DNA from: Nitrospirota bacterium
GTDB lineage: Bacteria; Nitrospirota; UBA9217
Assembly: GCA_963751455.1 (NCBI GenBank)
Contig: CAVVUN010000015.1
Location: 1,184,001-1,248,000 of the forward strand
Reading direction: 5' to 3'
DNA length: 64,000 bases
Within the stretch, counting starts at the first letter, position 1, and each line of letters begins with the position of its first letter. The position numbers and the translations under genes were made by a program. Under the pieces are notes generated by a model. The model did not search any database. It was not told the DNA's origin and saw only the letters and a program-made list of their open reading frames with translations. Positions 46,224 through 64,000 of this stretch are shown here, one piece after another.

Positions 46224-49200
46224 ATGCACCACAATTTCTTCTATAGAAAATTTGTCATGCTGGGCATTTTGATTTTATTCTTTATCGTCATGATAACTAC
46301 CCTTGCCCATGCCTCTTCCGAACTTGATGATACGTTAAAAGCTATCAAGGAGAAGAAAGGCAAATGGATTGCTGCAGACACGGCGATATCGAAGTTATCA
46401 CAAGACGAAAGAAAAAATCGGCTGGGTGCTCTTCTGCCGTCTGCAACCGGAAGAGAAAAGAAATTATTAATTCCTTCTGCTTCTTTGCCAATCTATCTTG
46501 ATTGGAGGAATTATGCCGGGAACAATTATGTAACTCCGATCAAGGACCAGGGAACATGCGGAATATGCTGGGCCTTTGCTACCACTGCGGCGCTTGAGTC
46601 GAATGTACTGATATCCCAAAATACGCCGAGTGTCATTCTGGATCTTTCTGAGCAGGTTTTGACTTCCTGCGCGAATGTGGGCACTTGCTCCGGCGGATTG
46701 ATAGATGCAGCTTCTGATTTTATCCGTGACAACGGGCTCCCACAAGAAAGCTGTTATCCGTATATTGCCTCGGACGGCATCTGTTCAAATGCGTGCTCAA
46801 ACTGGTTGACTGATTCCTATAAGATAACGGATTGGTACCTGGTTGATCCTACTGTCAATGCAATAAAATACGCGGTCTATAATCTCGGACCTGTTGTCAC
46901 GCTCATGGCCGCACATACAGATTTCTTCTATTACAGCTCGGGTATATATTCCCACGTATGGGGAGGATTCCAAGGATATCATGCTGCCACCATTATAGGT
47001 TATGATGACGCTGAACAGTACTTTATCGTAAAGAGCAGCTGGGGAACAGACTGGGGCGAAACCGGATATTTCAGGGTCGGTTACAGTGAAATAAGCGCAG
47101 ATACAATTTTCGGGGTCTGGTCGATTGTATATCAAAGCTCTATCCCGGCTGATTTTCCAACCATTGAAGGAATAACAAGAACTTTGAATAAACAGAATGC
47201 GGAGGACCAAAACAACGACAACAACCAGGCGAATGGAACCGAGAACCAACCATCTGGCGGCTCTGCATATGGCCATAGCAATTCACAGGCAGGCAACTCT
47301 TCAAGCAGTACAACCGCAAAAAAGCATCGTCAAATAGCTGGCCCGGGCTGGGTCATGGTAAAGTCGAGACCTATTACCCATGAACAAAATGAAGCCGATA
47401 TTATCGCGGACAGAAAAAATAGACAGACAAACACTACAAAAACACCAATGCTGGCTGCTCTAGCAACCTCTATAACTCCCGAAATCAAAGAACTTGCACG
47501 TGCGTTACACTATGATTTAAATAATATAAATTCCTACATGAAATTCAACATAGACTTTGTTCCCTATTTTGGCTCCCGTAAAGGCGCAACACAGACTCTT
47601 CTAGATGGCAGCGGGAATGATTTCGATCAGGCGGCGTTAATGGTTGCGCTTTTGAGAGAGAGCGGCTACTTAGCCCAATTTTATTTTGTAAAAGTGAGAT
47701 ACTCTTTTGAAGTGCTTGCCAATTTGCTGGGCGTGCAAGAAACCTGGGAAGCAATTTCCGGTGCCTTGTGGTCCGGTGGCATTCCGTGCAGCCGCTATGG
47801 TGACGAACAGGCCGACGTAGATCGTATGTGGGTTCTTGTAACAATCAACGGTGCTTATTTTGCCTATGATCCAGCTATTAAATTATATTCTTACAAGAAT
47901 AAAATCGATATTGCTGGCTCAATGGTTTACAGCCGAAACGAATTGGTAGCTGCAGCTACAGTGGGGGCTACGTTCAACAGTATATATACACAAAATGTAA
48001 ACGAAATGTCTATCAGGGATAAACTAGCGGCCTACTCATCACAACTAGTAAGCGTTATTAGAAATATGTATCCCAATAGTGATGTCAACGAGATATTGGG
48101 AGGAAGAACCATTTTGTCAGATGTAGGGTCAACTTCTATAGGTTATTACTGGTTGAAAGACGAGATACCGCCTGATCTTACATCCAAACTAATTTTGCGG
48201 CATGGTGACCTTGATTATGCGAAGGATTTCTGTAGAATCGATAATCCTGTCTTTTCTTCGGTAGATATTGATGCTGAATATGATATTCCGGATATATCGG
48301 GCAAGAGTCTGACCCTGATGCATCGAAGTGGTAGGCCGATCATCATGAAAGATGAATTTCTGAGTGCTGGGGGACAAGCGGCCACTACGGATAAAGCGCT
48401 TTGCATAATCGTTGATCATCCCGGGACGTTTGCCGATCAATGGGCCACCTACACGATTAAAAACAACGGCTCCTATGCGATAGTCTCTAACTTTAATGGT
48501 GTATCAGACGCGTTACTTCGTAAAAGACAGCAGCGCCTTGATATTTACGTTGCAGCGGGCGCGTCTGAGTATGTGCTCGGTGAAACGCTCAACATTATGG
48601 GTTTAACCTGGATGAAAGAAACTCAGGAAGCTCAAAAACTTTTATCCAGCATTTCGGGCGTTGTGTATGCGACGTACCATCGAGTAGGTCTGATGGCCCA
48701 GGAAGCTGGTTACTATATTGATGTAAAAAATTCTTTGGATTTCACTTCATATAACGACAGCGATAGCGATAAAAAATCATTCCAAAAAGCTCTCACGCTC
48801 ATTCAAAGCTCCTTTGAACATGGAATGCTGGAACAATTAATGGGTTCAGAGAGTTTGCCTAAGCCCGCCGTCTCCACGATGAAACTGTTTCAGCTTGCCA
48901 ATGCATCTGGAAGAAAAGTATTTACCACAAGCAAAAGTAATTTCGAGAGCTCCATTCAACAACAGTTGATAAACTATTCAACAACAGATATCGCCAATAT
49001 TCAGGAGCGCATAAACCGGGGATATACAGTGATTCTTCCTGATAATGGAAAACTGACCTTGAATAACTGGACAGGGGCAGGATATATTTCTCATTTAATG
49101 ACAGGTTCTACCTCTACTTATTATATAGAAGCGTCTATTAGCCCGGGCTACAATGGCGGGTATAGCTCGACGGACGGAACCGTAGACACATCAATGGTCA

Positions 49201-52200
49201 GTGATCGAAACCAAACAAATCAACAGTGCATGCCTAATTCAGATAATATTAACTTAATGATATCGCCTGTTGACACGCCATTGTCTCTTGAGCCGGTAGA
49301 TATGGCGAGTGGCGCGTATGTTTATAATCACACTGATTTAAACCTCGGCAGCAGCGCTCCGATGGGCCTCTCGTTTACAAGGTCATATAACAGCGGCTTG
49401 AACCGGATCAAACGGACGCTGGGCTACGGGTGGACGCACAACTACGACATTTACCTAACCCAAACCAGCCACGGCGATCCCGGTCTCGGCCGACGGCAGC
49501 CCGTGGACGCCGCGTCCTTTATCGCGGCCCTTTATGTAATATACGATATCTTAAAATCTGAAGACAACATCAGAGGATGGATGATTGGGTCGTTGATCAG
49601 TAAATGGGCCATAGATCAGTTGATCGATAACGCCGTTACAGTCCATATAGGAAGCAAGGTCGCGGAATTCATAAAGCTCGCCGATGGTACGTATGCCTCG
49701 CCGCCGGGTGTGACTACAAAATTGGTAAGAAACAGCGACGGAATATTCGATCTTCACGAGCGGTTTGGAACGAGCATGTATTTTAATACAAGCCATCGTA
49801 TCCGCGAAATTGTAGATGCAGATCGCAATACGATGGCGTTTTTCTATAATGGAGGCAACCTGGTTGCTGTGAGAGACGCCTTTGGGCGAATACTTTCATT
49901 CGGATACGATCCTTCAAACGAACAGATAAGCAGTGTGTGGGATACAACCGGTAGAATTGTTGACTATTATTACAGGTCGAATGGTGACCTGTCACAATAC
50001 AAAGATCCTGAACAAAAGATCTGGAGCTATGATTATGACACAGAGCACCGAATGAAGAGCCTTATAAATCCATTCGGGATTGATACGGCAAGAAATTATT
50101 ATGATACGATTGGACGGGTCGAGAAGCAGATCGTGCCTCGTCAGGGTGGGACGACTGCGGAGTATAATTTCTATTTTACCGGATACGAAAATTCAGAAGA
50201 AGATCCGGCAGGAAACAGGATTACCTATTATTTTGATGATAAGGGCAGAAATATTGGTGAGCAGGACGCACTCAAGAATAAATGGACCAAAAAATACGAT
50301 GGACAGGACCATGTAATAGAATTCAATGACCCTAAATTAAACAAAACATCGTATTTATATGATGGAAATCACAATGTCACGAGCATCATTAGCGCATTAT
50401 CCTATACAACGACTTTTCAGTATTACCCGGACACGTTCCTGTTGTCTGATATAATCGATCCGCTCCTTCACACAACCCATTTTGAATACAATTCCAGCAA
50501 TCATCTTAAGCTGACGCGGGACAATGAAGGCAACCAGTTTACAGCGGACTACTATCCAAATGGCCTCAAGCGGACTGCAACTGACGGACGAGGAACCACA
50601 TCGACGTTCGTCTATAACGCTTTAGGCGATCCGTACACATCTCAAACTGGCATACATTCGCTCATTACATATGCCTATGATCCCTTCGGCAGGATGACCG
50701 GGTTGACTGACCAGGCGAACGCTCAGACGACCTTTGAATATGACAAAAGAGGACTACTTAAAAAGATTATTGACCCAAGCCGGACTATATCAACCGATTT
50801 GGTATATTACGATGACGGAAATCTCTGGACTAAAACCGATCGTAACGGTCATACTGTAACCTACTCGTATACTCCCACAGGGAAAATCGAAACGATCACT
50901 TACCCTGATTTTTCTACAGTTACCTTCCTGTACAATCAACTAGATCAACTTTACGAAATGTGGGATTCAATCGGGACCACTTCGTATACCTATTTTGAGA
51001 ATGGCCGACTGAAGTCTATTACAGACCCTCGCGGCTTTACTGTTGGTTATAAGTACGACGCGGCCGGCAATGTATCAGAGCTTACATATCCTGACGGCAA
51101 AAAGTTGATTTACACATATGACAAATTAAATCGGATCAAGACGGTCAAAATCGATTGGCTGACAAAAACTGCCACTTATAACTATAAGGTCAAGGAACTT
51201 TATCTTGAAAATCTTGTCGGTTTTAACGGGCTTGTGACCGGTTACACTTATGACACTGCCCACAGGTTAACGGGAATCAGCAGTACCATAGCAAGCTATG
51301 CTTTTTCAGAACTTGATGGCAACGGCAATAGAAAAACCATCGTGCAGAACGAGCCGCTTGCGCCGAGTTTTGTTATGTCGGATGCAACTTACACTTATAA
51401 TGATACGAAAAACCGCTTATTATCTGCCGGAAATACCTCTTTTATTTATGACATTGAAGGTCAGCTTTTGGCAGGTGACGGTGTTACTAATGAATTTGAC
51501 TATGAGCACCGCCTGAGGAGGAGCGGAAGTAATTATTATTACTACGATAGCAGTGGGAGAAGACTGGAAGCAAATAGAAACGGCGTCACAACCCGCTATA
51601 TATATGATGCTGCTGGGAATGTCATTGCTGAAGCTGATAGCTCCAATACTATTACGCGGTATTACATCTACGGCGCAGGACTCTTGGCCATGGTTACGCC
51701 AGAGGGCGAGGTTTATAGCTATCACTACAATGCAACGGGCAGCACAACAGCGATGACTAACCAGAGCAAGACCATCGTGAATAAATACGCATATGATGCT
51801 TTCGGAGCGGTATTAAACCAGGTGGAGGCCGTATTGCAGCCCTTCAAATATATAGGCCAATTCGGCGTGATAGCCGAACCGAACGGATTCTATTACATGC
51901 GTGCAAGATACTATGACCCAAATGTGGGGAGATTTATTTCTGAAGACCCATTAGGTTTTGGCGGAGGGGATGTGAATCTGTACGCGTATGTGGGGAATAA
52001 TCCGGTGAACTTAATTGATCCGAATGGTAATGTTCCTCAGGCACTTGTAGGGGCTGCAATTGGTGGCGTAACAGGCGGAGTATTAGCTTACGTAAACGAC
52101 CAGCCTGTATTGCCGGGCATAGCGATGGGCGTAGGAACTGGTGCATTAGCAACAGTTACATTTGGAGCTTCTTGGCAACAAATTTTGCCAGTTCTGCTGC

Positions 52201-52423
52201 AATAGGGCTTGTATCTGCCGGTGGCACAAATCTTTTAGGACAACTTTATTCTGGAAACGAAATTAGCTGGAGTTCAGTAGCTTTCTCTGCTGCACTTGGC
52301 GCTAGTACAGGAGTGGCTGGCACTGCCATGGCTGGGAATACAGGCGTTATGGGAAGCGGTTTACTACAGGGTTTGGGTGAAATAGCATTTGGATTGCCTG
52401 CAATGCAAAGGTCATGTCCATAA
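46224..52423 (+). CDS. Secreted RHS protein: signal peptide, C1A papain-like peptidase, transglutaminase-like domain, DUF6531-like region, YD repeats, RHS core, Gly/Ala-rich C-terminal domain (frameshift near 52172)
   Basis: DQG.CG.CWAF, LSEQ, H...IIGY, SWG..WGE.GY; GNDFDQA.L.VALLR; EPVD..SG...R.YNS...G.GW; RARYYDP..GRF.SEDP...N.YAY..NNPV..IDPNG. Confidence 0.88.
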
Positions 52424-52446
52424 AACAAGAAGTGCCAAATATCTAA

Positions 52447-52926
52447 ATGGAGAATTATAGTATGCAGAATAGCAACAGCAATACGTACAAATATCCATGG
52501 ACGTACAAATTGAACTTCTTGCCTGGCGTATTATTCGTAAGCTTTTTTCTTTATTTAGTTTCGCAATCGAGATCGGAGGACAAGATTTATGGCTATATAA
52601 TTTTTGGAGTAATTCTAGCTTTTTTCATTTTATTGGTTTTTCTTGATAAAAGAAAAATTGCAGGAGAAATTCACACTACAGATGAAGCGATTATTGCGAA
52701 ACGAAAATATAAAAATGATAATTTAATAGAATGGCAACAGATTGAATCTTTAAAAAAAGAAGGTTCTAGCTATTCGATATCTACGAAAAAAAAAGACATA
52801 AAAATGTATGCCATAGTTATCGCAAAGAACAATAAAAGAATCGTTATCAGAAGAGAAATTAATAATTACAATCATCTTTTAAGCGTCATTGAAACAAAGA
52901 CTGGGAAACGGTTTGAAGATTTCTGA
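52447..52926 (+). CDS. Probable RHS immunity protein (2 TM plus basic domain)
   Basis: Directly downstream of the RHS C-terminus, markedly AT-rich. Confidence 0.6.
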   Translation: MENYSMQNSNSNTYKYPWTYKLNFLPGVLFVSFFLYLVSQSRSEDKIYGYIIFGVILAFFILLVFLDKRKIAGEIHTTDEAIIAKRKYKNDNLIEWQQIESLKKEGSSYSISTKKKDIKMYAIVIAKNNKRIVIRREINNYNHLLSVIETKTGKRFEDF

Positions 52927-53052
52927 TTAGACTTCAGTGAGGGAACGCTGGTAGGTCGGGTTAGCGAAGCGAACCCAAAATAATCGGCAAGAGCTTGAGG
53001 ATGTCTTCACTACGCGACGAATCCAGGTTTAATCGTGAGGGGAACATTTCTT

Positions 53053-54483
53053 ATGGCAAAAATTATTCGGATACTCTTGATGGCTTTGCTGCCGCTAATC
53101 TGTTTGAATGCATGCACGGATGATGGCGGTGGCACTAATCCGACTACCGTGAATGACAGTGGATATGACGGGGGAAGTGTTGAAACTACACTCGTGACAG
53201 TTACAACTCCACCAGCTGCCACACTGCCCGTTACGCCTTACCCTATGGAAGTCCCGATCGCGACAACGTCGGGCAATGAGCTCAGTATCAGCGCTGCATA
53301 TGACGGGACAAATATCTTGGTAGGGATTCGCGGCGATCAGGATTCCCCTGCCAATATTACTGCACAACTCGTGTCGTCAATGACAGGGAGCCTGGTAGGC
53401 CCGCGCGTCTCCGTAGGTCGGACCGGAGGAGCGCCTTCTGTGGCCTTTGACGGGTCTAATTATTTGATGGTCTGGCCTGATGATGCCACGTTTCCGAACA
53501 AGTTGTACGGCCAGCGAATAAGCACATCAGGGCAATTGGTCGGCGCGCCTTTTCCCATTGCCGTGACTGGTGATGAAGGCGGGCCGGTTATCTTTGATAG
53601 TGAGAATTATTTTGTCGCCTGGGAAATCAGGAGCAGTCCAAGCGTGACTGATACAGCCGATATATACGGACAGTTTATTTCCCCCTCGGGCGCTTTAATG
53701 GGATCAATAATTTCTGTTAGCACTGCCACCCATGGACAGAGAATGCCTGCCTTGGCCTTCGACGGAACGAACATTCTGGTGGTATGGGTCGACGGTCGCA
53801 ACCAGAGCGCGTGTTATACGGACCCGGCCACGCAACAGAACACATGCAAGGAATCGGATGTCTACGGACAATTTATAACAAAATCCTCGCCCGGAGAAGC
53901 CGGCGCCCTGAATGGCGACAATTTCCTGATAAACGAATCATCACTGCCGAACGAGAACCCGGCTATTTCCTTTAACGATACGAACTATCTTGTGGTAATG
54001 AATGAAGAATCAACACTCCCGAACGCCTGTCCCTCGGAAGGATGTCAATGGAGAATATACGGCCGGATTGTTACAACGGCGGGCATTCCCGGCGACTCAA
54101 GAGTCATCTTGAGCGATACGACCGCGGCTCGAAGGTCTCCGAAGACGGGCCGTTGCGGATCATATCATCTGGTAACCTGGACCGAAAATTTCGGAAGGCC
54201 GACGAGCAGGATAAAGGGTTGCTATTACGACGCTTCAGGTACATCCTATGGGGAGTTTACTATAGCTTCACCCACCGAGGACGGAAGACTCCCGTGGTCA
54301 GCGACACCCGCTTCACTTAAGATGATTGTGAACATAGGAAAGCCGGGTGCAGACCCCCTGAACACGGATTCTTATACAGAACAAGATGTCCTTGGAAAGA
54401 TGTTGCCGGTAATCTCAGAGATTGCCGTATCGCCGCTGGCAACAGTACAAGAACCGGACACGGGAGCGAATTCATCTTATTGA
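53053..54483 (+). CDS. Lipoprotein with FDG.NYLVVW...IYGQ beta-propeller-like repeats
   Basis: Lipobox LNAC, about six repeats. Confidence 0.78.
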   Translation: MAKIIRILLMALLPLICLNACTDDGGGTNPTTVNDSGYDGGSVETTLVTVTTPPAATLPVTPYPMEVPIATTSGNELSISAAYDGTNILVGIRGDQDSPANITAQLVSSMTGSLVGPRVSVGRTGGAPSVAFDGSNYLMVWPDDATFPNKLYGQRISTSGQLVGAPFPIAVTGDEGGPVIFDSENYFVAWEIRSSPSVTDTADIYGQFISPSGALMGSIISVSTATHGQRMPALAFDGTNILVVWVDGRNQSACYTDPATQQNTCKESDVYGQFITKSSPGEAGALNGDNFLINESSLPNENPAISFNDTNYLVVMNEESTLPNACPSEGCQWRIYGRIVTTAGIPGDSRVILSDTTAARRSPKTGRCGSYHLVTWTENFGRPTSRIKGCYYDASGTSYGEFTIASPTEDGRLPWSATPASLKMIVNIGKPGADPLNTDSYTEQDVLGKMLPVISEIAVSPLATVQEPDTGANSSY

Positions 54484-54581
54484 GGACTCTGACCCGATGG
54501 GGACCGAGAAAATTCAATTTTTAATCATACTTCAGCTTAGGCAGTCACTTTCGCGAAATTTTATGTCAGCGGGGAGGGACG

Positions 54582-56054
54582 ATGAAACATAAATTGAGTC
54601 TTGAGAGATTGCTGCTCTTTGTTTCAGCACTCGGGTTCATCTTTATCCCCGCTTTCGATTCCCATACCGCTACGGTGACACATACCTACGACGATCTTAA
54701 CAGGATAGAGCGGTCTGAGTATTCAGACGGCACTGTAATTATCTATAAGTATGACGAAGTCGGCAACCGTGAACGAAAGAGAGTCTTATACAAACCTCAC
54801 CTATTGACACTTCAAGTGAACGGTGGAGATTATGGTTCAGTTACAAGTGCACCAGCAGGCATTAGCTGCGGTACCAAATGCGAGGAGTTGTTCTCTGAGG
54901 GCACAGCAATTACGCTCACTGCCTCACCAAACACCTGCATGACGTTTACTGGCTGGAGCGGCGGCGGGTGCTCAGGAACAGGTACATGCTCTGTCACAAT
55001 AAGCGATGCAGCAACAGTTACAGCTACATTCACCCCCAATCCTCCTGTTACTCTTGCAGCATCGCCGCTATCGGGGAATTCGCCACTGATAGTTTCATTC
55101 ACCGACAACTCTATGTGTGCAACAGCATGGAACTGGAATTTCGGCGACACCGAAAATAATACGAGTACACTAAAAAGCCCTACTCACACCTATAATAAGT
55201 CTGGAATATATACTATTACTCTTACTGCCGACAGTTCGAGCGGATCAACAACAATCACGAAGTCAAATCTCATAAACATCGCAGGATTGCTGACCGTAGT
55301 AAAAGCAGGTCATGGCACAGGCAAGATTACGAGCAACACTGGGGGCATTGATTGTGGCGGTTCCTGTTCCGCTACATACGCAAAAGACACCACGGTTACT
55401 CTTACTGCAATGCCCGATCCCTGCATGAAATTAGCCGCATGGACCGGAGCATGCTCGGGAGCAGCAGCGTCATGTTCAGTTGCGATGACTGAATCAAAGA
55501 ATGTAACAGCAACGTTCAGTTATATTCAGCCAACCGCAAATTTCACCCCGGTGTCACAACAAACCGGAACCGCACCTTTCCAGGTTGCGTTTACTGATGC
55601 GTCAACGTGTGCAACGTCCTGGAGCTGGAACTTCGGAGACAGCGACCCGAATAATACGAACACCAGCACTGCGCAAAATCCGACTCCTCATACATACAGA
55701 AAGCCGGGCACCTATACGGTCGCACTGGTAGCTTCGAACCCGGACGGTTCATCGACAAATACCCAAACCGGTTTGATCTTCGCAAGCCCATGTTATAACT
55801 TTCCCGCGAAGATAGGAGACACGTACTACGGGTCTTTGACCGAGGCAATCACTGCAGCAGCAAGCGGTGCAACCATTAAGGCCCTGGCCGTAGATTTGAA
55901 CGGATCTGTAAGCGTAAATAAATCGCTGATCTTGAACGGGGGGTACGACTGCTACTATTCGAGCACGACCACAGGACCGACAGCTATAGGGGGCAATGTA
56001 GCGATTGAAAACGGAACGTTTAATGTCACGATGGACGGAATTAAAGTTAATTAA
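54582..56054 (+). CDS. Secreted protein: single YD/RHS unit, InlB-B-like repeats, two PKD domains, C-terminal domain
   Basis: YDDLNR....Y.DG....Y.YD.VGNR; G.VTS.P.GI.CG..C...LTA.P...F.GW.G.C; FTD.S...W.W.FGD...P.HTY..G.Y. Confidence 0.82.
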   Translation: MKHKLSLERLLLFVSALGFIFIPAFDSHTATVTHTYDDLNRIERSEYSDGTVIIYKYDEVGNRERKRVLYKPHLLTLQVNGGDYGSVTSAPAGISCGTKCEELFSEGTAITLTASPNTCMTFTGWSGGGCSGTGTCSVTISDAATVTATFTPNPPVTLAASPLSGNSPLIVSFTDNSMCATAWNWNFGDTENNTSTLKSPTHTYNKSGIYTITLTADSSSGSTTITKSNLINIAGLLTVVKAGHGTGKITSNTGGIDCGGSCSATYAKDTTVTLTAMPDPCMKLAAWTGACSGAAASCSVAMTESKNVTATFSYIQPTANFTPVSQQTGTAPFQVAFTDASTCATSWSWNFGDSDPNNTNTSTAQNPTPHTYRKPGTYTVALVASNPDGSSTNTQTGLIFASPCYNFPAKIGDTYYGSLTEAITAAASGATIKALAVDLNGSVSVNKSLILNGGYDCYYSSTTTGPTAIGGNVAIENGTFNVTMDGIKVN

Positions 56055-56181
56055 TCAAGTTCATAGTTCTAAGTTCAACAGTTCAAAGTTGGGAAGCGAT
56101 TAAAATAATAGATTTGATATTTGCCACAAAAATGCGCAGAAAGCACAAGGAAAACGTATTCTGAATAATCTCGGGGGGAAC

Positions 56182-58062
56182 ATGAAGAGAATCGTGGGTC
56201 TATCGATTTTTATCATCCTTATTGGTTTAAATCTATACGCAGGAGATCTGACTGTCGTTGGCACCGTCAATTTCGGTGCTCGTCAGAACGGTGGCCCCCA
56301 ACCTGGTTATTTAGGAAATACATGGACTCCTGCAGAAGGATACAAATTTTCTTATATCGGATCCACGTATTTTGACGGCACTAATTGGATAACTAATGCA
56401 AATGCTGGTTTTGGCTCAAATAATGTAGCAGAAATTGGTCTTGATGCGTCGGGCATCAAGTTTTATGCGCAAAGAGCCGCCACTGGCAATACCCAACGTA
56501 CCGATTCTACCGCCATTTTCGAAACGTATGAGCGTATGCGGATAGATAAGGATGGCAACGTCGGCATCGGGACAACCACACCTGGGCAAAAGCTTGATGT
56601 CCAGGGAGGCTATGTTAGGGCCTCTAACTCTGTTGCAGGTCCAGCAGCTTTTATGGAAGGCGGTGCTTCTGTAGCATATTTTGGAGCTCTCGATGGAAGA
56701 CGCGCATCTTTCGGCAATAGCGAAAATTGGGAAACTTTAACCGTTGATAACGGCAATGTCGGCATCGGGACGACAAATCCAAAACAGGTTTTGCAGGTAA
56801 ATACTAGTTTTGGTTTAGGATCAGGTGGTGGAGTGATATGGCCTGTTTTTGATCGAGATGCGAGTGATGGCGGTTTGTTTATACGATCTTACAATGACAC
56901 CAATCAAACATACTCGAATTTAGTAAAAATAAATGCGAATGGCAATGTCGGTATCGGGAAGAATCCGGAAGTGAAGTTGGATGTGAATGGCAATATAAAG
57001 ATAAGTGGCTCTATAAATCCGTATCTGCAAATAAATGACGGTACTTATAACGGGTATATCGAAGCAACAGGTGGGAGTCTACGTTCATATTGGAACGGAA
57101 GAGTCGGCTGGGTGCAAACCGCAGACGGCGATGTCGGCATTGGGAAAACGCCGGCGCCGGGAGTGAAGTTGGATGTTAATGGTACAACCTATGTGGAAAA
57201 GCTTCTGACTACAGGGAACAACTCCTACAACCCTGCTGATCCCAAGGCCGCTGATATTGTAGTCGGCAGCGATGCAGGGGCGCGACATGATTCCAGCGTG
57301 ATGTTCTGGTCCTCTGCGAGCGCCTCCAGGTTGTTTAATCAGAACGATGTGTTCTACATGAGCCCGTGGCATATGGATGCCGTTACAGGAGCCAATGTTG
57401 CGTTAGCAGCCGGTACTGGAAATAGCTATATCAAGAACGGCAGCGTCGGCATCGGGACAACTGATCCTACCCTGGGAGCATCTGTATCTAATCCAAAACT
57501 TAGTATCGCCGGTCCAACCGGCGATAATGCCAGATTAGGCATGAAGAGCGCCAAAAGCGGCGCATATACTTGGTGGCTTTATGCTGCTGATGATGCTTTT
57601 GGTCTGGGCGGCGGTACTGACGGCAAAGTAGGCAAAATTCAGGTGGCAAATAACGGCAATGTCGGTATCGGAGACTCGACCCCGGATTACAAATTAGTCG
57701 TTAAAGGCGGCATAATCTGTGAGGATCCAGACGGAGATGATACTTGTAATGCACCCGTACAGTCGGATATCAGGCTAAAAACAAATATCAGGAACATAAC
57801 CCATGCGCTAGACAAGGTGGAGCAGTTGCAGGGGGTAGAGTTCAATTATACGAAAGCAACCCTGCCCAAAGGAAATCAGATTGGCTTTATTGCGCAGCAC
57901 CTGGAAAAAGTATACCCGGAGCTTATCTATGAAGACATGGATGGCTATAAAATGATTGATTATCAGAAACTAACTGCCGTGCTGACAGAAGCAATCAAAG
58001 AGCAGCAAAAGCAGATCAATGAGCTTAAAGCTGATATTACACTTTTAAAAAAGACGAGATGA
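56182..58062 (+). CDS. Secreted tail-fibre-like protein 1 (6 GNVGIG units, C-terminal peptidase S74 chaperone)
   Basis: Signal peptide ...LNLYA|GDL, SDIRLKTNI, GFIAQ....YPEL, DY.KL...L..AIKEQQ. Confidence 0.85.
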   Translation: MKRIVGLSIFIILIGLNLYAGDLTVVGTVNFGARQNGGPQPGYLGNTWTPAEGYKFSYIGSTYFDGTNWITNANAGFGSNNVAEIGLDASGIKFYAQRAATGNTQRTDSTAIFETYERMRIDKDGNVGIGTTTPGQKLDVQGGYVRASNSVAGPAAFMEGGASVAYFGALDGRRASFGNSENWETLTVDNGNVGIGTTNPKQVLQVNTSFGLGSGGGVIWPVFDRDASDGGLFIRSYNDTNQTYSNLVKINANGNVGIGKNPEVKLDVNGNIKISGSINPYLQINDGTYNGYIEATGGSLRSYWNGRVGWVQTADGDVGIGKTPAPGVKLDVNGTTYVEKLLTTGNNSYNPADPKAADIVVGSDAGARHDSSVMFWSSASASRLFNQNDVFYMSPWHMDAVTGANVALAAGTGNSYIKNGSVGIGTTDPTLGASVSNPKLSIAGPTGDNARLGMKSAKSGAYTWWLYAADDAFGLGGGTDGKVGKIQVANNGNVGIGDSTPDYKLVVKGGIICEDPDGDDTCNAPVQSDIRLKTNIRNITHALDKVEQLQGVEFNYTKATLPKGNQIGFIAQHLEKVYPELIYEDMDGYKMIDYQKLTAVLTEAIKEQQKQINELKADITLLKKTR

Positions 58063-61000
58063 CAGTCTCAATCGTCATGTTTGACTTCTGACAGAACAGG
58101 GTTGTCTTGGTCCAGAGATAATTGATACGCGAAGTATGATGCGGGGGGGGATTATGAAGAGAGCAGCTGTATGTGTTTCGATTGTTATTGTCTTTATCGC
58201 TTTAAATCTATATGCAGGAGATCTGACTGTTACGGGAAAGCTTGGCGTCGGAGCTGATCCGCAACAGGAAAGGCTGTTTGTCAATGGAAATATTGGATCA
58301 AATAATCCTGGAAATAGGATTTATTTAAGAAGCAATGCGAACGATGCAAGCAGAAATACAAATTTTAATCCGAAACTTTTTTATGAAGGAATTATTTCAG
58401 GAAATGGAGATGGTTCGGGAGGAACATTGGAATGGGGTCTCCATCTTAACGCTCTTCCATGGAGTTGGGGGCAGGATAAAATTTATTATCACGGCGCCGA
58501 TCATATCTTTTACACGACAGAAGGGGCAGGTTCGGAGTCGGAAAAAGTTCGAATAATGCAAAACGGCAATCTAGGCATCGGCACAACGAGCCCGGTGACA
58601 CGGTTCGAGGTCGCTCCTCCGTATCCTTCAGCAGGCAATGTCGCAGCAGGAGTTTTTAGATTGAACGGCAACCAGTCATGGGGGCATGCGGTTACACTCG
58701 CCACCGATAATCCAACGGGTGATGACGCACGACTTCTCTTGAGCTACCGTAATAAAGCGAAGCAATGGGCTCTTGGTGGATTTTATAATAGCACCCGGTT
58801 TGGTATTTGGGAAGATGCGGGAGACGGAGTCTATGGTTCTGGCTGGGGTACCGAACGGTTCACGATTTCCGCAGGTGGCAACGTTGGCATCGGCAAGGCC
58901 GATCCAGGAGCGAAACTAGATGTAGTGGGGGACATTTGGTCAAACAGTAATAGGCCGATTAAAGTAAGCGGGATCCAGGGAAAAATTACTATTCAGGGGG
59001 ATACAGGTGGTTGGGCTAACTATCTTCACTTTTTGGGATCCAGCGGAACTGACAGAGGAGGCTTTGGTGCTCTTGGGGGTGCAGACGCCCTTGCATATCT
59101 TTATGCTGGTGATTCTTATTCTAATCCGACGACGGTTTGGAGAAGCGGCAACGTCGGCATCGGGACGACGGAGCCAGCTTCAAAACTTCACATTATCTCA
59201 GAAGAAATAGGCACTGGAGCAAATAAAGGATTTAGAATATCAAACTATAACAACAGCCAAAGTTATAGCTTAAGAACCGGTATTACGAATGTAACTAATA
59301 ATTCTCTTTCTGTCTATGATGAGAATGCAGGGGCAAATAGACTGGTAGTAGATACAAGCGGCAACGTCGGCATAGGGACGACAACGCCAAACTCAAAATT
59401 AAGCGTTGGCGGCGATGGCTATTCTGCCGCGGCGATCTATGGCTATGGTTCGTATGGTATCTCTGGCTGGGGCACGAATACAGGTGTTGAAGGTGGAAGT
59501 ACAGTCCCCGGCGGTAAGGGAGTCGTGGGCTTGGGTGACTTGGATGGTGTTGAAGGCTATTCCACACGCACCACAGCAGGCGGTCGCGGCGTGTTTGGGT
59601 TCGCATATAACGGATATGATTTCTATGCCGGTGGACCAGGCATCAATTACGGTCCGTTTACGGGCGGTCACGAGGTCAAGCTGTCGGATGATACCCCGAA
59701 GAACTTAAAGGCGGGTATGATTTTTTCCGTTACAGGCGAGTTGGAAGCCAGATCAGATGACAAGGGAAATATCAGCATATCATCAACGCTGCCGACGGTA
59801 GCGTTATCCAACATTGCAAACGACAAGGCGGTTTTCGGAGTATTAGTTATGGAAGCCGATGTGCCTGAGAAGCACTGGCATAAGAAAAAAGAAGGCGAGC
59901 GGTTTGCCGCCGTCAATGCTTTAGGCGAGGGCCGGGTGTTGGTGACCAATATCAACGGGGACATCGACGTGGGTGATTACATCACGACTTCGCCGGTTCC
60001 CGGGTACGGGCAAAAGCAGAACGACGATTTGCTTCATTCCTATACCCTGGGCAAAGCGATTGAAAAAGTGGATTGGTCCAAGGTGACGGAAACCGCAGTA
60101 TTTAATGGCAAGAAATATAAAGTATATCTGATCGGCGTAGTCTATACCAGTGGCTAATTCCTGCTTCAATGCCACATAAGCATTCATCGTGATGATGCTG
60201 TTGTAAGTCAGGGTTCCATTGATCTCAAAAAATACCGCGAATTATAATCGGGGGGATTATGAAGAGAGGTCTATGTATATCAATTGTTATTGTCCTTATA
60301 GCTTTAAATCTATACGCAGGAGACCTGAACGTCACGGGCAAACTGGGAGTTGGGCGGGACCCCGATCCTAACACAAAGATCAACCTGAATTACGGAGAGA
60401 TTGGTATAGGACAGCAAAATGATTTTACGCCGTATCTGCGTATCGGCATGGATTCATCTTGGGACCAATATATCGCCAATAATGCTTATTGGACGGGCTC
60501 AGGATATAACTATGTCAGCACAGGCGGTTATGGCGGACTTGCAAGTCGCATCCATCAGGTTTCAGGGACGATCCAGTTCGATACGGCTTCGGGCGGCGCT
60601 AATCCTATATCTTGGGCCAACCGTCTGTATATTGCAAATAACGGCAACGTCGGCATCGGGACGACCCCGGATTCACCTTTGACAATAAATTCGGGAAGTT
60701 ATTTAGTTAGGATCGGAACAACAGCTACTTCTTGGGCTGGGAACTCAACCTACCCCACAATATTCAGTTCAACTTCTGACCAATGGGTCATGTTCACGAA
60801 TCCTCATATTTCTTATACCCAAAATGGAATAAATGGTTTTAGTGGAAGTATGACAGGGGCGACTTTAAGAATGGCAGGAGACCCAACGGCCGCAAGTTAT
60901 TGGGACGCAGGTCCCGGGACTTCGGGTGCTGGAGCGGACAAATTTTCAATCGGTCGGAATTCCTCATCGTATTTTATAGTAGATAATTCCGGTAACGTCG

Positions 61001-61476
61001 GCATCGGGACGACAAGTCCGGGAGCCCAATACAAAATAGAAGTTAGCGGAGGAGATATAACTAACTATCCGAGCTACACCCATCCAAATTGCGCATTATC
61101 TTGGACCTGTATAAGCACTCATGTTTTTACTTCTCATCATTACTATGGCATCAATGAAACAGCGCCGATCTATCTCGGAGAATCGAATCCTATTATTATC
61201 CGCGGCAACGTCGGCATCGGGACGAATGTGCCGGGAACAAACAAGCTTCAGATTGGGTCTGGATCAGATGTCTTAGGCAATAATGCACTGTCGGTTGTTG
61301 GCGGTGATGTAACAATTGACGGGGCTGGAACTGCAAGAGATCCTTCAATGTATTTTAGATACACAAGTTCAACAGCAAATATTAAGAGCGATGGCCATCT
61401 TTCATTTTTGACGGGTGCGAGCCCATCGGAAAAGATGAGGGTTTCAACAAGCGGCGACGTCGGCATCGGGACGACG
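56554..61476 (+). repeat. 14 dispersed in-frame copies of the ~21-24 nt repeat GGCAACGTCGGCATCGGGACG
   Basis: Starts at 56554, 56752, 56941, 57127, 57439, 57655, 58565, 58877, 59147, 59360, 60643, 60991, 61204, 61453. Confidence 0.9.
58154..60157 (+). CDS. Secreted tail-fibre-like protein 2 (4 GNVGIG units, C-terminal peptidase G2-like chaperone)
   Basis: Same signal peptide, FTGGH, NALGEG.V.V....G.I..GDYITTS..PGYG.KQ.DD.LH.YT.GKA. Confidence 0.8.
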   Translation: MKRAAVCVSIVIVFIALNLYAGDLTVTGKLGVGADPQQERLFVNGNIGSNNPGNRIYLRSNANDASRNTNFNPKLFYEGIISGNGDGSGGTLEWGLHLNALPWSWGQDKIYYHGADHIFYTTEGAGSESEKVRIMQNGNLGIGTTSPVTRFEVAPPYPSAGNVAAGVFRLNGNQSWGHAVTLATDNPTGDDARLLLSYRNKAKQWALGGFYNSTRFGIWEDAGDGVYGSGWGTERFTISAGGNVGIGKADPGAKLDVVGDIWSNSNRPIKVSGIQGKITIQGDTGGWANYLHFLGSSGTDRGGFGALGGADALAYLYAGDSYSNPTTVWRSGNVGIGTTEPASKLHIISEEIGTGANKGFRISNYNNSQSYSLRTGITNVTNNSLSVYDENAGANRLVVDTSGNVGIGTTTPNSKLSVGGDGYSAAAIYGYGSYGISGWGTNTGVEGGSTVPGGKGVVGLGDLDGVEGYSTRTTAGGRGVFGFAYNGYDFYAGGPGINYGPFTGGHEVKLSDDTPKNLKAGMIFSVTGELEARSDDKGNISISSTLPTVALSNIANDKAVFGVLVMEADVPEKHWHKKKEGERFAAVNALGEGRVLVTNINGDIDVGDYITTSPVPGYGQKQNDDLLHSYTLGKAIEKVDWSKVTETAVFNGKKYKVYLIGVVYTSG

Positions 61477-62136
61477 AGTCCCAATACTTATCTCCAGGTT
61501 GGTGACGCCGACGGAAAACCGGTTACAGCATTAACTGGCTACATATATTATCCGAACATTTATAACAAAAACACTAAAATATATGAGAATGGCAGCGGCA
61601 ACAATTTTCCTGCTGCCGTTATGGGAGAATCTTCTACAGGCAGAGGAATTGTGGGCGTAACACAAAGCGGCGCTGGTGTTTATGGCACTGCCGTAAACGG
61701 TACGGGTAAGGGCGTTTATGGCATGGGTGGGACCTACAGCGTGGTTGGCTATAACGAAAACGTTAACGGTTACGCTATTTATTGTGACAGTGTCACCAAT
61801 GTCAACGGCTGCGGCGGCAACAGGTACTGGTATTATTCTTCAGATGAGAGAAAAAAAGAAAATATCACGACCGTAAACGAGGCTTTGCTCAAGATTATGC
61901 AGCTGCGAGGAGTAGGCTTTAACTGGAAAAACGATCCTGATAAGAAACATCAGATCGGCCTGATCGCCCAGGAGGTCATGACCATCGTGCCGGAAGCTGT
62001 CGGTCAGGATCCCGAGGGAAATTACACCATGGCGGACGGTCCCCTCGTGGCGCTTTTAACCTCAGCAATAAAAGAACAACAGAAGCAAATTGAGGAATTG
62101 AAGAAGCGGATAACGGATATTGAAAGGACAAAATAA
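60259..62136 (+). CDS. Secreted tail-fibre-like protein 3 (4 GNVGIG units, C-terminal peptidase S74 chaperone)
   Basis: Same signal peptide, SDERKKENI, GLIAQEV...PEAV, AIKEQQ.QIE.LK. Confidence 0.85.
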   Translation: MKRGLCISIVIVLIALNLYAGDLNVTGKLGVGRDPDPNTKINLNYGEIGIGQQNDFTPYLRIGMDSSWDQYIANNAYWTGSGYNYVSTGGYGGLASRIHQVSGTIQFDTASGGANPISWANRLYIANNGNVGIGTTPDSPLTINSGSYLVRIGTTATSWAGNSTYPTIFSSTSDQWVMFTNPHISYTQNGINGFSGSMTGATLRMAGDPTAASYWDAGPGTSGAGADKFSIGRNSSSYFIVDNSGNVGIGTTSPGAQYKIEVSGGDITNYPSYTHPNCALSWTCISTHVFTSHHYYGINETAPIYLGESNPIIIRGNVGIGTNVPGTNKLQIGSGSDVLGNNALSVVGGDVTIDGAGTARDPSMYFRYTSSTANIKSDGHLSFLTGASPSEKMRVSTSGDVGIGTTSPNTYLQVGDADGKPVTALTGYIYYPNIYNKNTKIYENGSGNNFPAAVMGESSTGRGIVGVTQSGAGVYGTAVNGTGKGVYGMGGTYSVVGYNENVNGYAIYCDSVTNVNGCGGNRYWYYSSDERKKENITTVNEALLKIMQLRGVGFNWKNDPDKKHQIGLIAQEVMTIVPEAVGQDPEGNYTMADGPLVALLTSAIKEQQKQIEELKKRITDIERTK

Positions 62137-62574
62137 AAGGTCACGGTTTTTTAAAAGAACCATCATCTGGGCAAAGGTAAGGGCCTCAACCTATTAAAAA
62201 CGCACGATTGTTGAGAAGTCTATCTTGGTGAGAAATGCGACGTTCTTCATTTTCTGAGCCATATAACAGGATTTCTCGCTTCACTCGAAATGACAGCGTG
62301 AGGTTTTTAATGACCGAGAAGGACCAAAAATGAAAAAGATGTGATTATGCCCTTTTTTTTCACTTCTTGGTGTCTTCGAGTCTTCGTGGTAAATTTGGGT
62401 TCTTTTAGGTAAATTTCTGTTCCGGTTTACACCAGTAATGTAACCGGTATAAAGTTGAGATCGACCTGACTCCGAGGTCGAGGTAACGGCCCTTTTCCGG
62501 TTGAAAATTCAACCGGGATTCTGATATAGTAGTTCGACGGATGGTGCTCTGCATCCGGCAAATGGGAGACCGAC

Positions 62575-62877
62575 ATGGAAATAAATGAAAATAAACTGAA
62601 GGAAATATTGAATGAACAGCGCCGGGAATTCCAGCATTTTATGGGCATTATGAAAGAAGACGGTGACTCGAAGATGCAATTGCTCGGCGAACAGTTTCAG
62701 GAAATCAAGTCGACACTCGACCATCACTCAAAAATTCTGGAATCGCACACGGATACCCTATCGTCCCATACACAAATGATAGGCGCTCTCATGGAAGATG
62801 TCCATATCATCAAATCCGACATCCACTTCATGAAGGCAGACCTTAAGAAAAAGGTCGACTACGATGAATTCGAATAG
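62575..62877 (+). CDS. Short coiled-coil hypothetical protein
   Basis: GGAG RBS, heptads with a repeated L.SH motif. Confidence 0.65.
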   Translation: MEINENKLKEILNEQRREFQHFMGIMKEDGDSKMQLLGEQFQEIKSTLDHHSKILESHTDTLSSHTQMIGALMEDVHIIKSDIHFMKADLKKKVDYDEFE

Positions 62878-63124
62878 CGTGGGTCTGGCCGCGTTTATCG
62901 ATGCGACATCAGTAATCGGTTTTTCGTTCTTGCACTTCCTTTTTATGGCCTTCCAGTCGTCACACCTCGGCTCATCCGCCTTGATGATATCGCCAGCAGT
63001 TACGTCAAGAACGATAATTTAGAGTTTGTCTATATCGTGGTAGAAAAATGATCTTTGCTCCTGAAACTGGTCAGCCGTCGTAAGCTGATCTACATCACAA
63101 AGTCTTTTATCGAAGGAGGCATTT

Positions 63125-63829
63125 ATGCGCATAGGCAAAATTGTAACCGTTTTGTTAACCATCGCAACTCTGACCGCATGCAATGATAATAAGAGGACGG
63201 CCGGAACAGGAAATGCGGTAAAGATCTCCGCATCCCAAATAATTTTCAAAAGCAGCGGGGTTGCGCTTGCAAGCACTACTGGCGTGGAAGTTGACCCGAA
63301 TATAAAGGTGCTTGCACAGAACGTCTCGATCGACACCGGATCAAACGCACTCAAGTCAGACAATCTTCAGGACGCGCTCGACAAAGAACTGGCTGTGGAT
63401 CTCGGGAAGACTCTGCTCGGCAAGACATGGAAAGTTACCAATAAAACAGCCGATCCGACCTATACTGGTACCACCGGCCAGATAAAGTTTAATGAGGACG
63501 GTACTATTAATCTCATGAGCGGTTACTTCGCTGCAATAGGCAAAGTCCATAGCAGCGAAATCAGTTTCTGCCATATACCGATCATAATCAACTATGAAAT
63601 TATAAGTGATGGCGTCATGTATGTAAGCGCCCAGGTCAAGCAGAGGGATGTAAACTCCTTACCAATCTTGCCTGGATATAAAAGCAGAGCGGCGGATAGC
63701 ACATATACAACCGATGAAGACAGCGTTGTGAAAGTAGTATCCCGAACCACTGACAAGATCGTTGTAACAGGCAGCGGCGGCTGCGGTTCGGTGGGGAGTG
63801 AGCGGATATCCATTCTAACGCCCCAATAA
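63125..63829 (+). CDS. Hypothetical lipoprotein
   Basis: AGGAGG RBS, lipobox LTAC. Confidence 0.78.
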   Translation: MRIGKIVTVLLTIATLTACNDNKRTAGTGNAVKISASQIIFKSSGVALASTTGVEVDPNIKVLAQNVSIDTGSNALKSDNLQDALDKELAVDLGKTLLGKTWKVTNKTADPTYTGTTGQIKFNEDGTINLMSGYFAAIGKVHSSEISFCHIPIIINYEIISDGVMYVSAQVKQRDVNSLPILPGYKSRAADSTYTTDEDSVVKVVSRTTDKIVVTGSGGCGSVGSERISILTPQ

Positions 63830-64000
63830 AAGAGGGTAATTTTTATTTAAATATTTTATGCCTAGTACTCCGTAAACTTAGTTGTTAATGGTTCAACGCC
63901 GTCATTCCGGCACGTTTTAAGCCGGAATCCAGGGAAATTTCGATTCAAACCTCTGGACCCCGGCTAAAGTCATGCCGGGGTGACGGAAAAAGAGGCGCAA

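What the first reader, a model, noticed from the sequence alone, without database searches (positions are those of the whole stretch)
56554..61476. Fibre genes built as arrays of variable modules joined by a DNA-conserved 21-nt repeat: candidate module-shuffling system
Seen: 14 in-frame junctions encode G(N/D/S)VGIG(T/K) with position-specific codons: first Gly GGC 13/14, Val GTC 12/13, second Gly GGC 12/14, Ile ATC 12/14, third Gly GGG 11/14. The intervening modules (186-348 bp, all multiples of 3) look unrelated to each other, are more AT-rich and commonly use GGT/GGA. Protein selection cannot explain GGC at two Gly positions and GGG at the third. The consensus core also has dyad arms (CGTC-GGCATCGG-GACG). 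Inference: the repeat is a recombination or integration site through which coding cassettes are acquired or exchanged, a repeat-spacer array inside ORFs that diversifies adhesive fibres. No recombinase is visible in this window.
Basis: partly seen in the sequence, partly recalled or inferred. Interest (0 to 1): 0.88.

Follow-up and report, generated by a model that had tools for sequence, protein, structure and literature searches.

The report
Fibre genes shuffled at DNA word
Three neighbouring genes for predicted surface fibres are mosaics of modules joined at a 21-letter DNA word that recurs letter for letter in distant bacteria, archaea and phages and marks where modules change partners, likely through a nuclease that sits beside such arrays elsewhere but was not found in this genome, which would be an undescribed way of diversifying proteins.

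Summary
Observation confirmed: 14 in-frame G-x-V-G-I-G junctions in three S74/MAT-like fibre genes, with four of five codon biases significant even against context-matched genome usage. The word (perfect copy at window 59147-59167) is kept across Patescibacteria, DPANN archaea, other phyla and phages. Window modules recur in 56 of 320 fetched proteins, with the window's neighbouring module in 0 of 100 tests. In other genomes, near-identical module copies sit between different neighbours and identity breaks at the word's first base (19 of 19 pairs). A Zn-ribbon/HTH/RecB-type nuclease gene lies downstream of such arrays: loci picked by that protein alone carry the word upstream (8 of 8 with 5 kb or more), and 72 of 100 junctions there are perfect against 0.06 expected. 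That nuclease was not found in this genome or 63 relatives, only 3 of 14 window copies are perfect, and many repeat-rich genomes and all viral loci lack it. The window is therefore most likely an orphan product of the system. Enzyme activity is inferred from linkage only. This scan noted the same word and nuclease before on other DNA (e1-7095501, e1-9768950); ten paper searches found no description.

The parts
56182..58062 (+). Gene A, 626 aa: signal-peptide-like leader, 6 junctions, 5 internal modules, C-terminal Peptidase_S74 chaperone
   Evidence: S74 aa 528-582, E 8e-17
58136..60157 (+). Gene B, 673 aa (likely start 58154): leader, 4 junctions plus a degenerate one near 58235, non-S74 C-terminal cap
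   Evidence: no Pfam family
60259..62136 (+). Gene C, 625 aa: leader, 4 junctions plus a degenerate one near 60337, C-terminal Peptidase_S74
   Evidence: S74 aa 528-581, E 1e-16; tail-fibre chains 8jov, 6f45
56171..56263 (+). Leader of gene A, homologous to those of B (58146-58238, 67%) and C (60248-60340, 77%): the three genes are paralogs at the 5' end only
   Evidence: family D2
56554..56574 (+). junction word, 1 mismatch
56752..56772 (+). junction word, 1 mismatch
56941..56961 (+). junction word, 3 mismatches
57127..57147 (+). junction word, 5 mismatches
57439..57459 (+). junction word, 2 mismatches
57655..57675 (+). junction word, 6 mismatches
58565..58585 (+). junction word, 5 mismatches
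58877..58897 (+). junction word, 3 mismatches
59147..59167 (+). junction word, perfect copy (reference used throughout this report)
59360..59380 (+). junction word, 1 mismatch
60643..60663 (+). junction word, perfect copy
60991..61011 (+). junction word, 1 mismatch
61204..61224 (+). junction word, perfect copy
61453..61473 (+). junction word, 1 mismatch
58898..59146 (+). module B3, found in 13 other proteins at 46-69% identity, never with its window neighbours
59168..59359 (+). module B4, found in 9 other proteins at 44-65%
60358..60642 (+). module C1, found in 12 other proteins at 52-78% (twice in P0122)
60664..60990 (+). module C2, found in 9 other proteins at 46-73%
59612..60156 (+). C-terminal cap of gene B, 73% DNA identity to a same-family genome's gene (L385) that has a similar leader but different middle modules
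57763..57927 (+). Peptidase_S74 domain of gene A
61840..62001 (+). Peptidase_S74 domain of gene C

Best explanation
The three genes are mosaics of 55-110-residue fibre modules joined at a DNA-conserved 21-nt word that marks where modules change neighbours, and a Zn-ribbon/helix-turn-helix/RecB-type nuclease encoded beside such arrays in other genomes likely binds that word and would cut or nick there so that repair copies in another word-flanked module; this genome's arrays are likely orphans, because no such nuclease was found in it. The word encodes the capping loop of a trimeric beta-helix fibre (motif from PMC10769870), so every exchange keeps the frame and is predicted to keep the fold. 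Shown: DNA-level conservation, breakpoints at the word, module reuse, linkage to the nuclease gene, absence of a hit in this genome. Inferred: binding, cleavage, copy-in repair, fibre adhesion, orphan status. Step odds: exchange happens at the word 0.9; the nuclease is the dedicated agent 0.6.
For: (1) Codon bias in the window exceeds both backgrounds at four of five positions. (2) The exact word (one position left open) occurs in about 2000 GTDB stretches; the 156 shown include Patescibacteria, Nanoarchaeota/Woesearchaeota/Aenigmarchaeota, Omnitrophota, Elusimicrobiota, Bdellovibrionota, Planctomycetota, Acidobacteriota and Bacteroidota. (3) In viral contigs sampled with a synonymous-blind pattern, Gly1 GGC 0.49 vs 0.21, Val GTC 0.33 vs 0.14, Gly3 GGG 0.29 vs 0.11 and Thr ACG 0.41 vs 0.13 expected from the same ORF (221 junctions); the same dipeptides outside the motif show no such bias. 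(4) Window modules occur in 56 of 320 fetched proteins; the window's neighbouring module was present in 0 of 100 tests; 50 of 57 matches end at the next motif. (5) All 19 pairs of modules at least 88% identical among 696 module contexts have a different left flank, and 18 of 19 a different right flank; identity jumps from about 0.25 to 1.0 at the first base of the word; L191 and L471 each hold one module four times among different neighbours. (6) Family relative L385 shares the leader type and B's cap but not the middle. (7) The nuclease gene lies downstream on the same strand in 8 of 63 long-flank contigs. In the reverse test, 79 loci picked by the protein alone have the motif upstream in 8/8 with 5 kb or more, 14/19 with 3 kb, 20/26 with 2 kb and 29/42 with 1 kb; motifs number 115 upstream, 6 downstream and 2 on the other strand. 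(8) 72 of 100 GNVGIGT junctions in those loci are perfect 21-mers, 0.056 expected. (9) Patescibacteria sample of 200: nuclease 6, perfect word 11, both 3, each on the same contig (Fisher p 0.002; kin are not independent). (10) The model (pLDDT 89) has a transposase-like Zn/HTH N-terminus and a RecB/AddA/Cas4-like C-terminus with invariant acidic and DYK residues. (11) Arrays lie within 500 nt of a contig end in 28 of 83 contigs of 10 kb or more, 3.1 expected.
Against: No nuclease hit in this genome (tblastn; best E 0.89; 48-sequence HMM best E 1.8) or in 63 class relatives. 8 of 11 Patescibacteria genomes with the perfect word had no nuclease, and 5 re-searched at E 0.1 still had none; one of them (G124, L524) holds a 100% identical module pair, a recent event without a detected nuclease. 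No viral locus held carries the nuclease. 5 of 19 nuclease loci with 3 kb or more upstream lack the motif by the pattern used. The 79 loci are the best 80 of 499 by similarity to one query and include near-duplicates. The 19 pairs come from 7 module families in 6 arrays, all within single contigs; none links two genomes. The window's own modules have no near-identical copy anywhere held, and their matches are 43-78% at protein level, so the exchanges are old. 394 of 397 exact copies lie in open reading frames, so the word is not a free-standing element. Structure matches are middling (best Z 8.3; no Foldseek E at or below 0.001). No reaction was observed.
Confidence: 0.6

Rival explanations
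1. Passive homology hub: the capping-loop codons are the only shared sequence between modules, so ordinary homologous or single-strand-annealing recombination crosses over there and homogenises the word across a shared gene pool. The nuclease is a selfish, homing-type passenger that targets or hitchhikes on this hotspot and is not needed.
For: Arrays with perfect words and recent duplications exist where no nuclease was found; viral arrays lack it; synonymous letters are more alike within than between 16 viral arrays at all 7 codons; the nuclease sits inside split inteins in about 4 of 61 loci, as homing endonucleases of fractured genes do (PMC2677866 abstract); PeSL repeats shuffle T4-type genomes by recombination between short repeats (PMC2839356 abstract).
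Against: One identical word in bacteria and archaea of different GC content is hard to keep by drift and conversion alone (inference). Fidelity is highest beside the nuclease: 72/100 there against 3/221 in viral loci, and 19/25 against 107/247 among pattern-picked genome loci. A homing nuclease should select for loss of its site in its own locus, not perfection (general knowledge). Word-like arms bound small inverted elements near the nuclease.
Confidence: 0.3
2. RNA- or reverse-transcriptase-mediated cassette acquisition (DGR-like or CRISPR-RT-like), with the four-helix-bundle neighbour acting like Avd.
For: A 23S_rRNA_IVP-like four-helix gene follows the nuclease in 30 of 45 loci with enough sequence; the likeness to Avd is recalled.
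Against: No RT family came up among the recurring neighbours of the genome loci (45 clusters read by eye, 10 proteins scanned). One DGR-like RT-type ORF was seen upstream in one locus (L352, by eye), which lacks the word. Variation is whole-module, not adenine-specific.
Confidence: 0.04
3. Protein selection plus host codon-context bias, with ordinary domain shuffling surviving only at structural borders.
For: The peptide is a structural motif (PMC10769870); the host prefers ATC and GTC before G; the Ile bias is not significant; breakpoints at protein level would fall at structural borders anyway.
Against: Position-specific GGC versus GGG persists in AT-rich phage ORFs, and matched dipeptide controls are flat; 72 perfect words against 0.056 expected; polar linkage to one nuclease family.
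Confidence: 0.03
4. Assembly chimeras at the repeat create the apparent mosaics.
For: Contigs break near arrays far more often than expected; most sources are short-read metagenome assemblies.
Against: Repeated modules differ by 1-9% between copies; reading frames stay open over thousands of codons (641 of 654 spacings are multiples of 3); genes A-C are also recorded from a second assembly source; arrays occur on contigs of 0.6-1.7 Mb.
Confidence: 0.03

Closest known systems
Bdellovibrio MAT (mosaic adhesive trimer) fibres, S74 and non-S74 (PMC10769870, passages read)
   Same: Secreted mosaic fibres with a conserved N-terminus, S74 or other C-terminal caps, and a repeated capping-loop motif that matches the junction peptide and the following P-x-x-x-L
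   Different: In the passages read, the paper describes tip swapping at protein level only: no DNA word, no internal module exchange, no enzyme
Integrons (recalled)
   Same: Array of cassettes bounded by a recurring site, with an adjacent enzyme gene; toxin-antitoxin genes nearby
   Different: Cassettes here are parts of one ORF; the site is a 21-nt direct repeat with 4-bp arms, not a long attC hairpin; no tyrosine integrase catalytic domain was found
R64-type shufflon, Rci/sfx in pilV (recalled)
   Same: Short in-frame repeats diversify an adhesin
   Different: Shufflons invert C-terminal segments between inverted repeats with a tyrosine recombinase; here repeats are direct, internal modules are all expressed in one chain and are duplicated
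PeSL cassettes of T4-type phages (PMC2839356, abstract)
   Same: Short conserved DNA repeats mediate modular shuffling
   Different: PeSLs are intergenic promoter/stem-loops in one phage group; this word is coding and shared across domains of life, with a linked nuclease
Fractured genes: split intein with free-standing endonuclease (PMC2677866, abstract)
   Same: About 4 of 61 nuclease loci show the nuclease between intein halves of a fibre gene
   Different: A minority arrangement here; the host gene is a fibre, not a DNA enzyme; the nuclease is RecB/Cas4-like with an IS1-type Zn/HTH; not present in the window

Membership tests
MAT/S74 fibres | C-terminal Peptidase_S74 chaperone | tested here: met
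   genes A and C; B has another cap
MAT/S74 fibres | capping-loop motif V-G-x-G/N-x-x-x-P-x-x-x-L | tested here: met
   peptides against the motif quoted in PMC10769870; Supplementary Fig. 18 not seen
MAT/S74 fibres | trimeric beta-helix structure, surface display, adhesion | not tested
   no fold of the window proteins was run; sequence hits to tail-fibre chains only
MAT/S74 fibres | Bdellovibrio MAT N-terminal domain | not tested
   the leaders here are about 20-30 aa, lineage-specific
Integron | adjacent tyrosine integrase IntI | tested here: not met
   none among 42 window ORFs scanned; the recurring neighbour elsewhere is a PD-(D/E)XK protein; L524/L525 carry only SAM-like domains
Integron | attC-type imperfect palindrome of about 55-140 nt | tested here: not met
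   conservation is confined to about 21-29 nt; fold about -2.5 kcal/mol
Shufflon | inverted repeats and silent inverted segments | tested here: not met
   all window copies are on the + strand and in frame; 2 opposite-strand motifs against 121 same-strand in nuclease loci
Shufflon | Rci tyrosine recombinase adjacent | tested here: not met
Diversity-generating retroelement | RT plus TR/VR pair with adenine-specific changes | tested here: not met
   no RT in the window ORFs scanned; no TR/VR-length repeat in 50000-64000
CRISPR-like repeat-spacer array | non-coding repeats with 20-70 nt spacers and Cas1 | tested here: not met
   spacers 165-327 nt, coding; 394 of 397 exact copies in open frames
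IS1/IS1595 transposase (for the linked nuclease) | N-terminal Zn ribbon and HTH | tested here: met
   NF050000 near or above cutoff, weak NF033558 N-terminal match; model
IS1/IS1595 transposase (for the linked nuclease) | DDE catalytic domain | tested here: not met
   the C-terminus is PDDEXK_1 / RecB-Cas4-like
Homing endonuclease of fractured genes (for the linked nuclease) | sits between split-intein halves | tested here: inconclusive
   about 4 of 61 loci by motif scan, confirmed by Pfam in L330, L342, L183, L167
Any site-specific recombination system | enzyme-dependent exchange at the site | not testable with these tools
   needs an assay

The most novel reading that the evidence does not exclude
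A cross-domain, in-frame cassette system: a transposase-type DNA-binding head fused to a RecB/Cas4-type nuclease recognises a 21-nt word that doubles as a structural loop, and copies protein modules between fibre genes of Patescibacteria, DPANN archaea, their phages and free-living bacteria, building adhesins from one shared global module pool without a tyrosine, serine or DDE recombinase or an RT.
Probability: 0.5. Interest if true: 0.93.

Novelty: categorically new. Interest (0 to 1): 0.8.

Why it matters
If the nuclease is the agent, this is a kind of programmed protein diversification with a catalytic fold not known for recombination, working inside reading frames and shared by bacteria, archaea and phages. 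It would explain how the very large mosaic surface fibres of host-attached microbes are built and renewed, why their assemblies break at these genes, and it gives a two-part system (one gene, one 21-nt site) that can be tested in a laboratory strain. Even under the passive rival, one DNA word held constant across domains as an exchange point would be a new observation. The window itself shows the product in a free-living lineage rather than the engine.

Tried and rejected
Sequencing runs for the locus: none was listed, so no read test for rearranged alleles or circles could be run. Complex prediction of the nuclease with the four-helix protein gave no answer. The first nuclease model from 7 sequences was low-confidence (pLDDT 55) and was replaced; neither model had a Foldseek match at E 0.001, and the PDB sequence search gave only zinc-finger hits. 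NCBIfam names none of the three window proteins. DNA search of the window arrays against all held loci found only B's cap and short stretches around the word. Local BLAST first suggested that P0016 and P0025 share two adjacent B modules; reading the sequences and trimming the motif showed only one shared module. The integrase-like start of the L524/L525 fibres was considered as the recombinase and rejected: SAM-like domains only, no catalytic domain by Pfam. A hairpin (attC-like) model was rejected as too weak; the arms-conserved, spacer-free pattern appears in viral junctions (Gly2 0.21 observed vs 0.21 expected) but not beside the nuclease, where all positions are 0.86-0.95. Earlier-note look-ups by nuclease sequence and by this genome returned nothing. 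Paper searches that found no description of the word or the nuclease link; the library lacks most subscription papers, and no supplement was read. Rows left out: of 38 nuclease stretches, 32 went into alignment A4 with 3 archaeal ones; own-genome loci were left out of the cross-locus counts.
Full report
OBSERVATION. The region holds three tandem + strand ORFs: A 56182-58062, B 58136-60157 and C 60259-62136. They share a signal-peptide-like leader (67-77% DNA identity). A and C end in Peptidase_S74; B has another cap. Against the same genes all five biases are significant (p 1e-4 to 1e-8). Against genome-wide context-matched usage four remain (p 8e-5, 0.006, 0.0013, 0.00025) and Ile does not (p 0.2). 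Spacings are 186-348 nt, all in frame; the modules are unrelated to each other apart from one weak pair, and have GC 0.36-0.54. Three of 14 copies are perfect (reference 59147-59167); the rest have 1-6 mismatches. The rest of the genome has only a few further copies, in two other fibre-like genes on C9 and C2. No recombinase or RT was found among 42 window ORFs scanned.

THE PEPTIDE IS KNOWN, THE DNA WORD IS NOT. The junction peptide and the P-x-x-x-L after it match the capping-loop consensus of Bdellovibrio MAT fibres (PMC10769870; I read passages from two term searches, not the supplements). That explains the amino acids. It does not explain the synonymous letters. A synonymous-blind scan of viral contigs (140 stretches shown, about 22000 estimated) gave 221 GNVGIGT junctions. 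Five of seven codons were enriched well above the ORF's own usage (for example Gly1 GGC 0.49 vs 0.21, Gly3 GGG 0.29 vs 0.11, Thr ACG 0.41 vs 0.13), Ile less so, and Gly2 not at all; the same dipeptides outside the motif showed no such bias; 89 of 130 loci were above expectation. The exact word, one position left open, is in about 2000 GTDB stretches; the 156 shown span Patescibacteria, DPANN archaea, Omnitrophota, Elusimicrobiota, Bdellovibrionota, Planctomycetota, Acidobacteriota, Bacteroidota and others. Conservation starts sharply at the first G and fades after about 21-29 nt. 394 of 397 exact copies lie in open frames.

MODULES CHANGE NEIGHBOURS AT THE WORD. Three protein searches (best 120 listed each) gave 320 distinct proteins other than the window's own. 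With the motif trimmed off, internal window modules were found in 56 of them at 43-78% identity (B3 13, C1 12, B4 9, C2 9, A1 3, A4 3, B1 2, B2 2, A3 2, C3 1; none for A2, A5, C4). The window's neighbouring module was present in 0 of 100 tests, and 50 of 57 matches ended at the next motif. In a same-family genome, L385 has the same leader type and B's cap (73% DNA identity over window 59612-60156) but different middle modules, one of which resembles a module of P0025. At DNA level, among 696 module contexts held, 19 pairs were at least 88% identical; all 19 had a different left flank and 18 a different right flank, with identity rising from about 0.25 to 1.0 at the first base of the word. L191 has one 96-nt module four times among different neighbours, and L471 has a 174-nt module four times. 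These pairs come from 7 module families in 6 arrays, each within one contig, so they show copying within arrays, not transfer between genomes. Arrays lie within 500 nt of a contig end in 28 of 83 contigs of at least 10 kb (3.1 expected), as expected of variable or repeated sequence.

A LINKED NUCLEASE. Clustering the neighbours of the genome loci showed one family downstream on the same strand in 8 of 63 long-flank contigs, bacterial and archaeal. It has an IS1/IS1595-type Zn ribbon, an HTH and a PD-(D/E)XK domain. The reverse test used the protein alignment alone on metagenomes (499 relatives, best 80 kept, 79 loci). The motif lay upstream in 33 of 79 overall, many contigs being short: 8/8 with at least 5 kb upstream, 14/19 with 3 kb, 20/26 with 2 kb and 29/42 with 1 kb. 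Motifs numbered 115 upstream, 6 downstream and 2 on the opposite strand. There, 72 of 100 junctions are perfect against 0.056 expected. The set includes near-duplicates and favours close relatives of the query. In 200 Patescibacteria genomes the nuclease was in 6, the perfect word in 11 and both in 3, each time on one contig (Fisher p 0.002, overstated by kinship). A four-helix-bundle gene follows in 30 of 45 loci with enough sequence, and split-intein halves flank the pair in about 4 of 61. A model from 35 sequences (pLDDT 89, pTM 0.86) aligns its C-terminal half with RecB/AddA/Cas4/MGME1 nuclease domains (Z 5.7-8.3) and residues 43-98 with transposase-type HTHs (Z 5-7); these are middling scores, and Foldseek had no match at E 0.001. 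Putative catalytic residues are invariant. The family has 429 representatives at E 1e-30.

RESULTS AGAINST. The nuclease was not found in this genome (completeness 100, contamination 5.4) or in 63 class relatives, of which 4 carry the word with at most one mismatch. Eight of 11 Patescibacteria genomes with the perfect word had no hit, and five re-searched at E 0.1 still had none; one of them holds a 100% identical module pair. None of the viral loci held (140 and 124, of which about 75 have 8-kb flanks) carries it. So the enzyme is neither present at most arrays nor shown to be required. No reads could be laid on this locus.

MECHANISM. Most likely the nuclease binds the word through its Zn/HTH head and nicks or cuts there, and repair copies in another word-flanked module (inferred from non-adjacent near-identical copies). 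Because the word encodes a capping loop, products stay in frame and are predicted to fold. Modules with a perfect word are copied more often, which would keep the word constant across a shared pool. The window's genes share leaders but not modules, so they were assembled after the leader duplicated in this lineage; today they are likely orphans with decaying sites, served earlier or in trans. Confidence 0.6. The main rival (0.3) is a passive homology hub with the nuclease as a selfish passenger.

COMPARISON. It works like an integron or shufflon placed inside a reading frame, but fails membership of both, and of DGRs and CRISPR arrays, on the features tested (their definitions are recalled). 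The proteins are MAT-like fibres. PeSL shuffling (PMC2839356, abstract only) and fractured genes (PMC2677866, abstract only) are partial analogues. Ten searches found no description; subscription papers and supplements were not covered. Two earlier notes of this scan on other genomes report the same word, one of them with the nuclease pair and hairpin elements. I had found the nuclease link before reading them. The leads on hairpin elements and on the fractured-genes paper came from e1-7095501; the hairpin lead was partly confirmed.

VERDICT. Real feature; DNA-level conservation and module exchange at the word are well supported; the dedicated-enzyme step is a strong linkage without an assay, and the enzyme was not found here. 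Interest 0.8; categorically new if the enzyme step holds.

Noticed in passing
G000:C9:222329-225818 (L384): A fourth paralog with the same leader type is interrupted by a transposase gene (222787-224610), with a 269-nt stretch repeated at 93% on both sides and a tandem module copy at 95%.
   Followed up: partly
G000:C2:169724-170593 (L009): A short fibre-like gene with one degenerate junction, next to sulfur-activation and ABC transporter genes.
   Followed up: no
L359:4853-4962, L340:6361-6504: Small inverted elements whose two arms each match the word at 17-18 of 21 letters, near nuclease genes; this lead came from e1-7095501.
   Followed up: partly
L524:9672-17381, L525:5799-13172: Giant fibre ORFs begin with two integrase SAM-like domains and a membrane helix, and are followed by a four-helix-bundle gene; no nuclease was found in these genomes.
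   Followed up: partly
L173:3042-4824: Toxin-antitoxin-like pairs lie between three copies of the nuclease 3' end, and a non-coding perfect word abuts one copy.
   Followed up: partly
L330, L342, L183, L167, L355: The nuclease and four-helix genes lie between intein halves of a fibre gene, or the nuclease is fused in frame to the fibre; one intein carries a NYN domain.
   Followed up: partly
window 46182-56054: Upstream island of secreted-looking genes: papain/transglutaminase/RHS protein (2007 aa), DUF6585 gene, PKD/InlB-repeat protein; a similar RHS-adhesin-fibre order is seen in relative L527.
   Followed up: no
P0047 versus P0019: Near-identical fibres that differ by a roughly 10-residue deletion ending at a junction motif.
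   Followed up: no
window 62575-62877: 100-aa coiled-coil ORF; a similar-looking one lies near the array in L524:2154-2447 (by eye).
   Followed up: no
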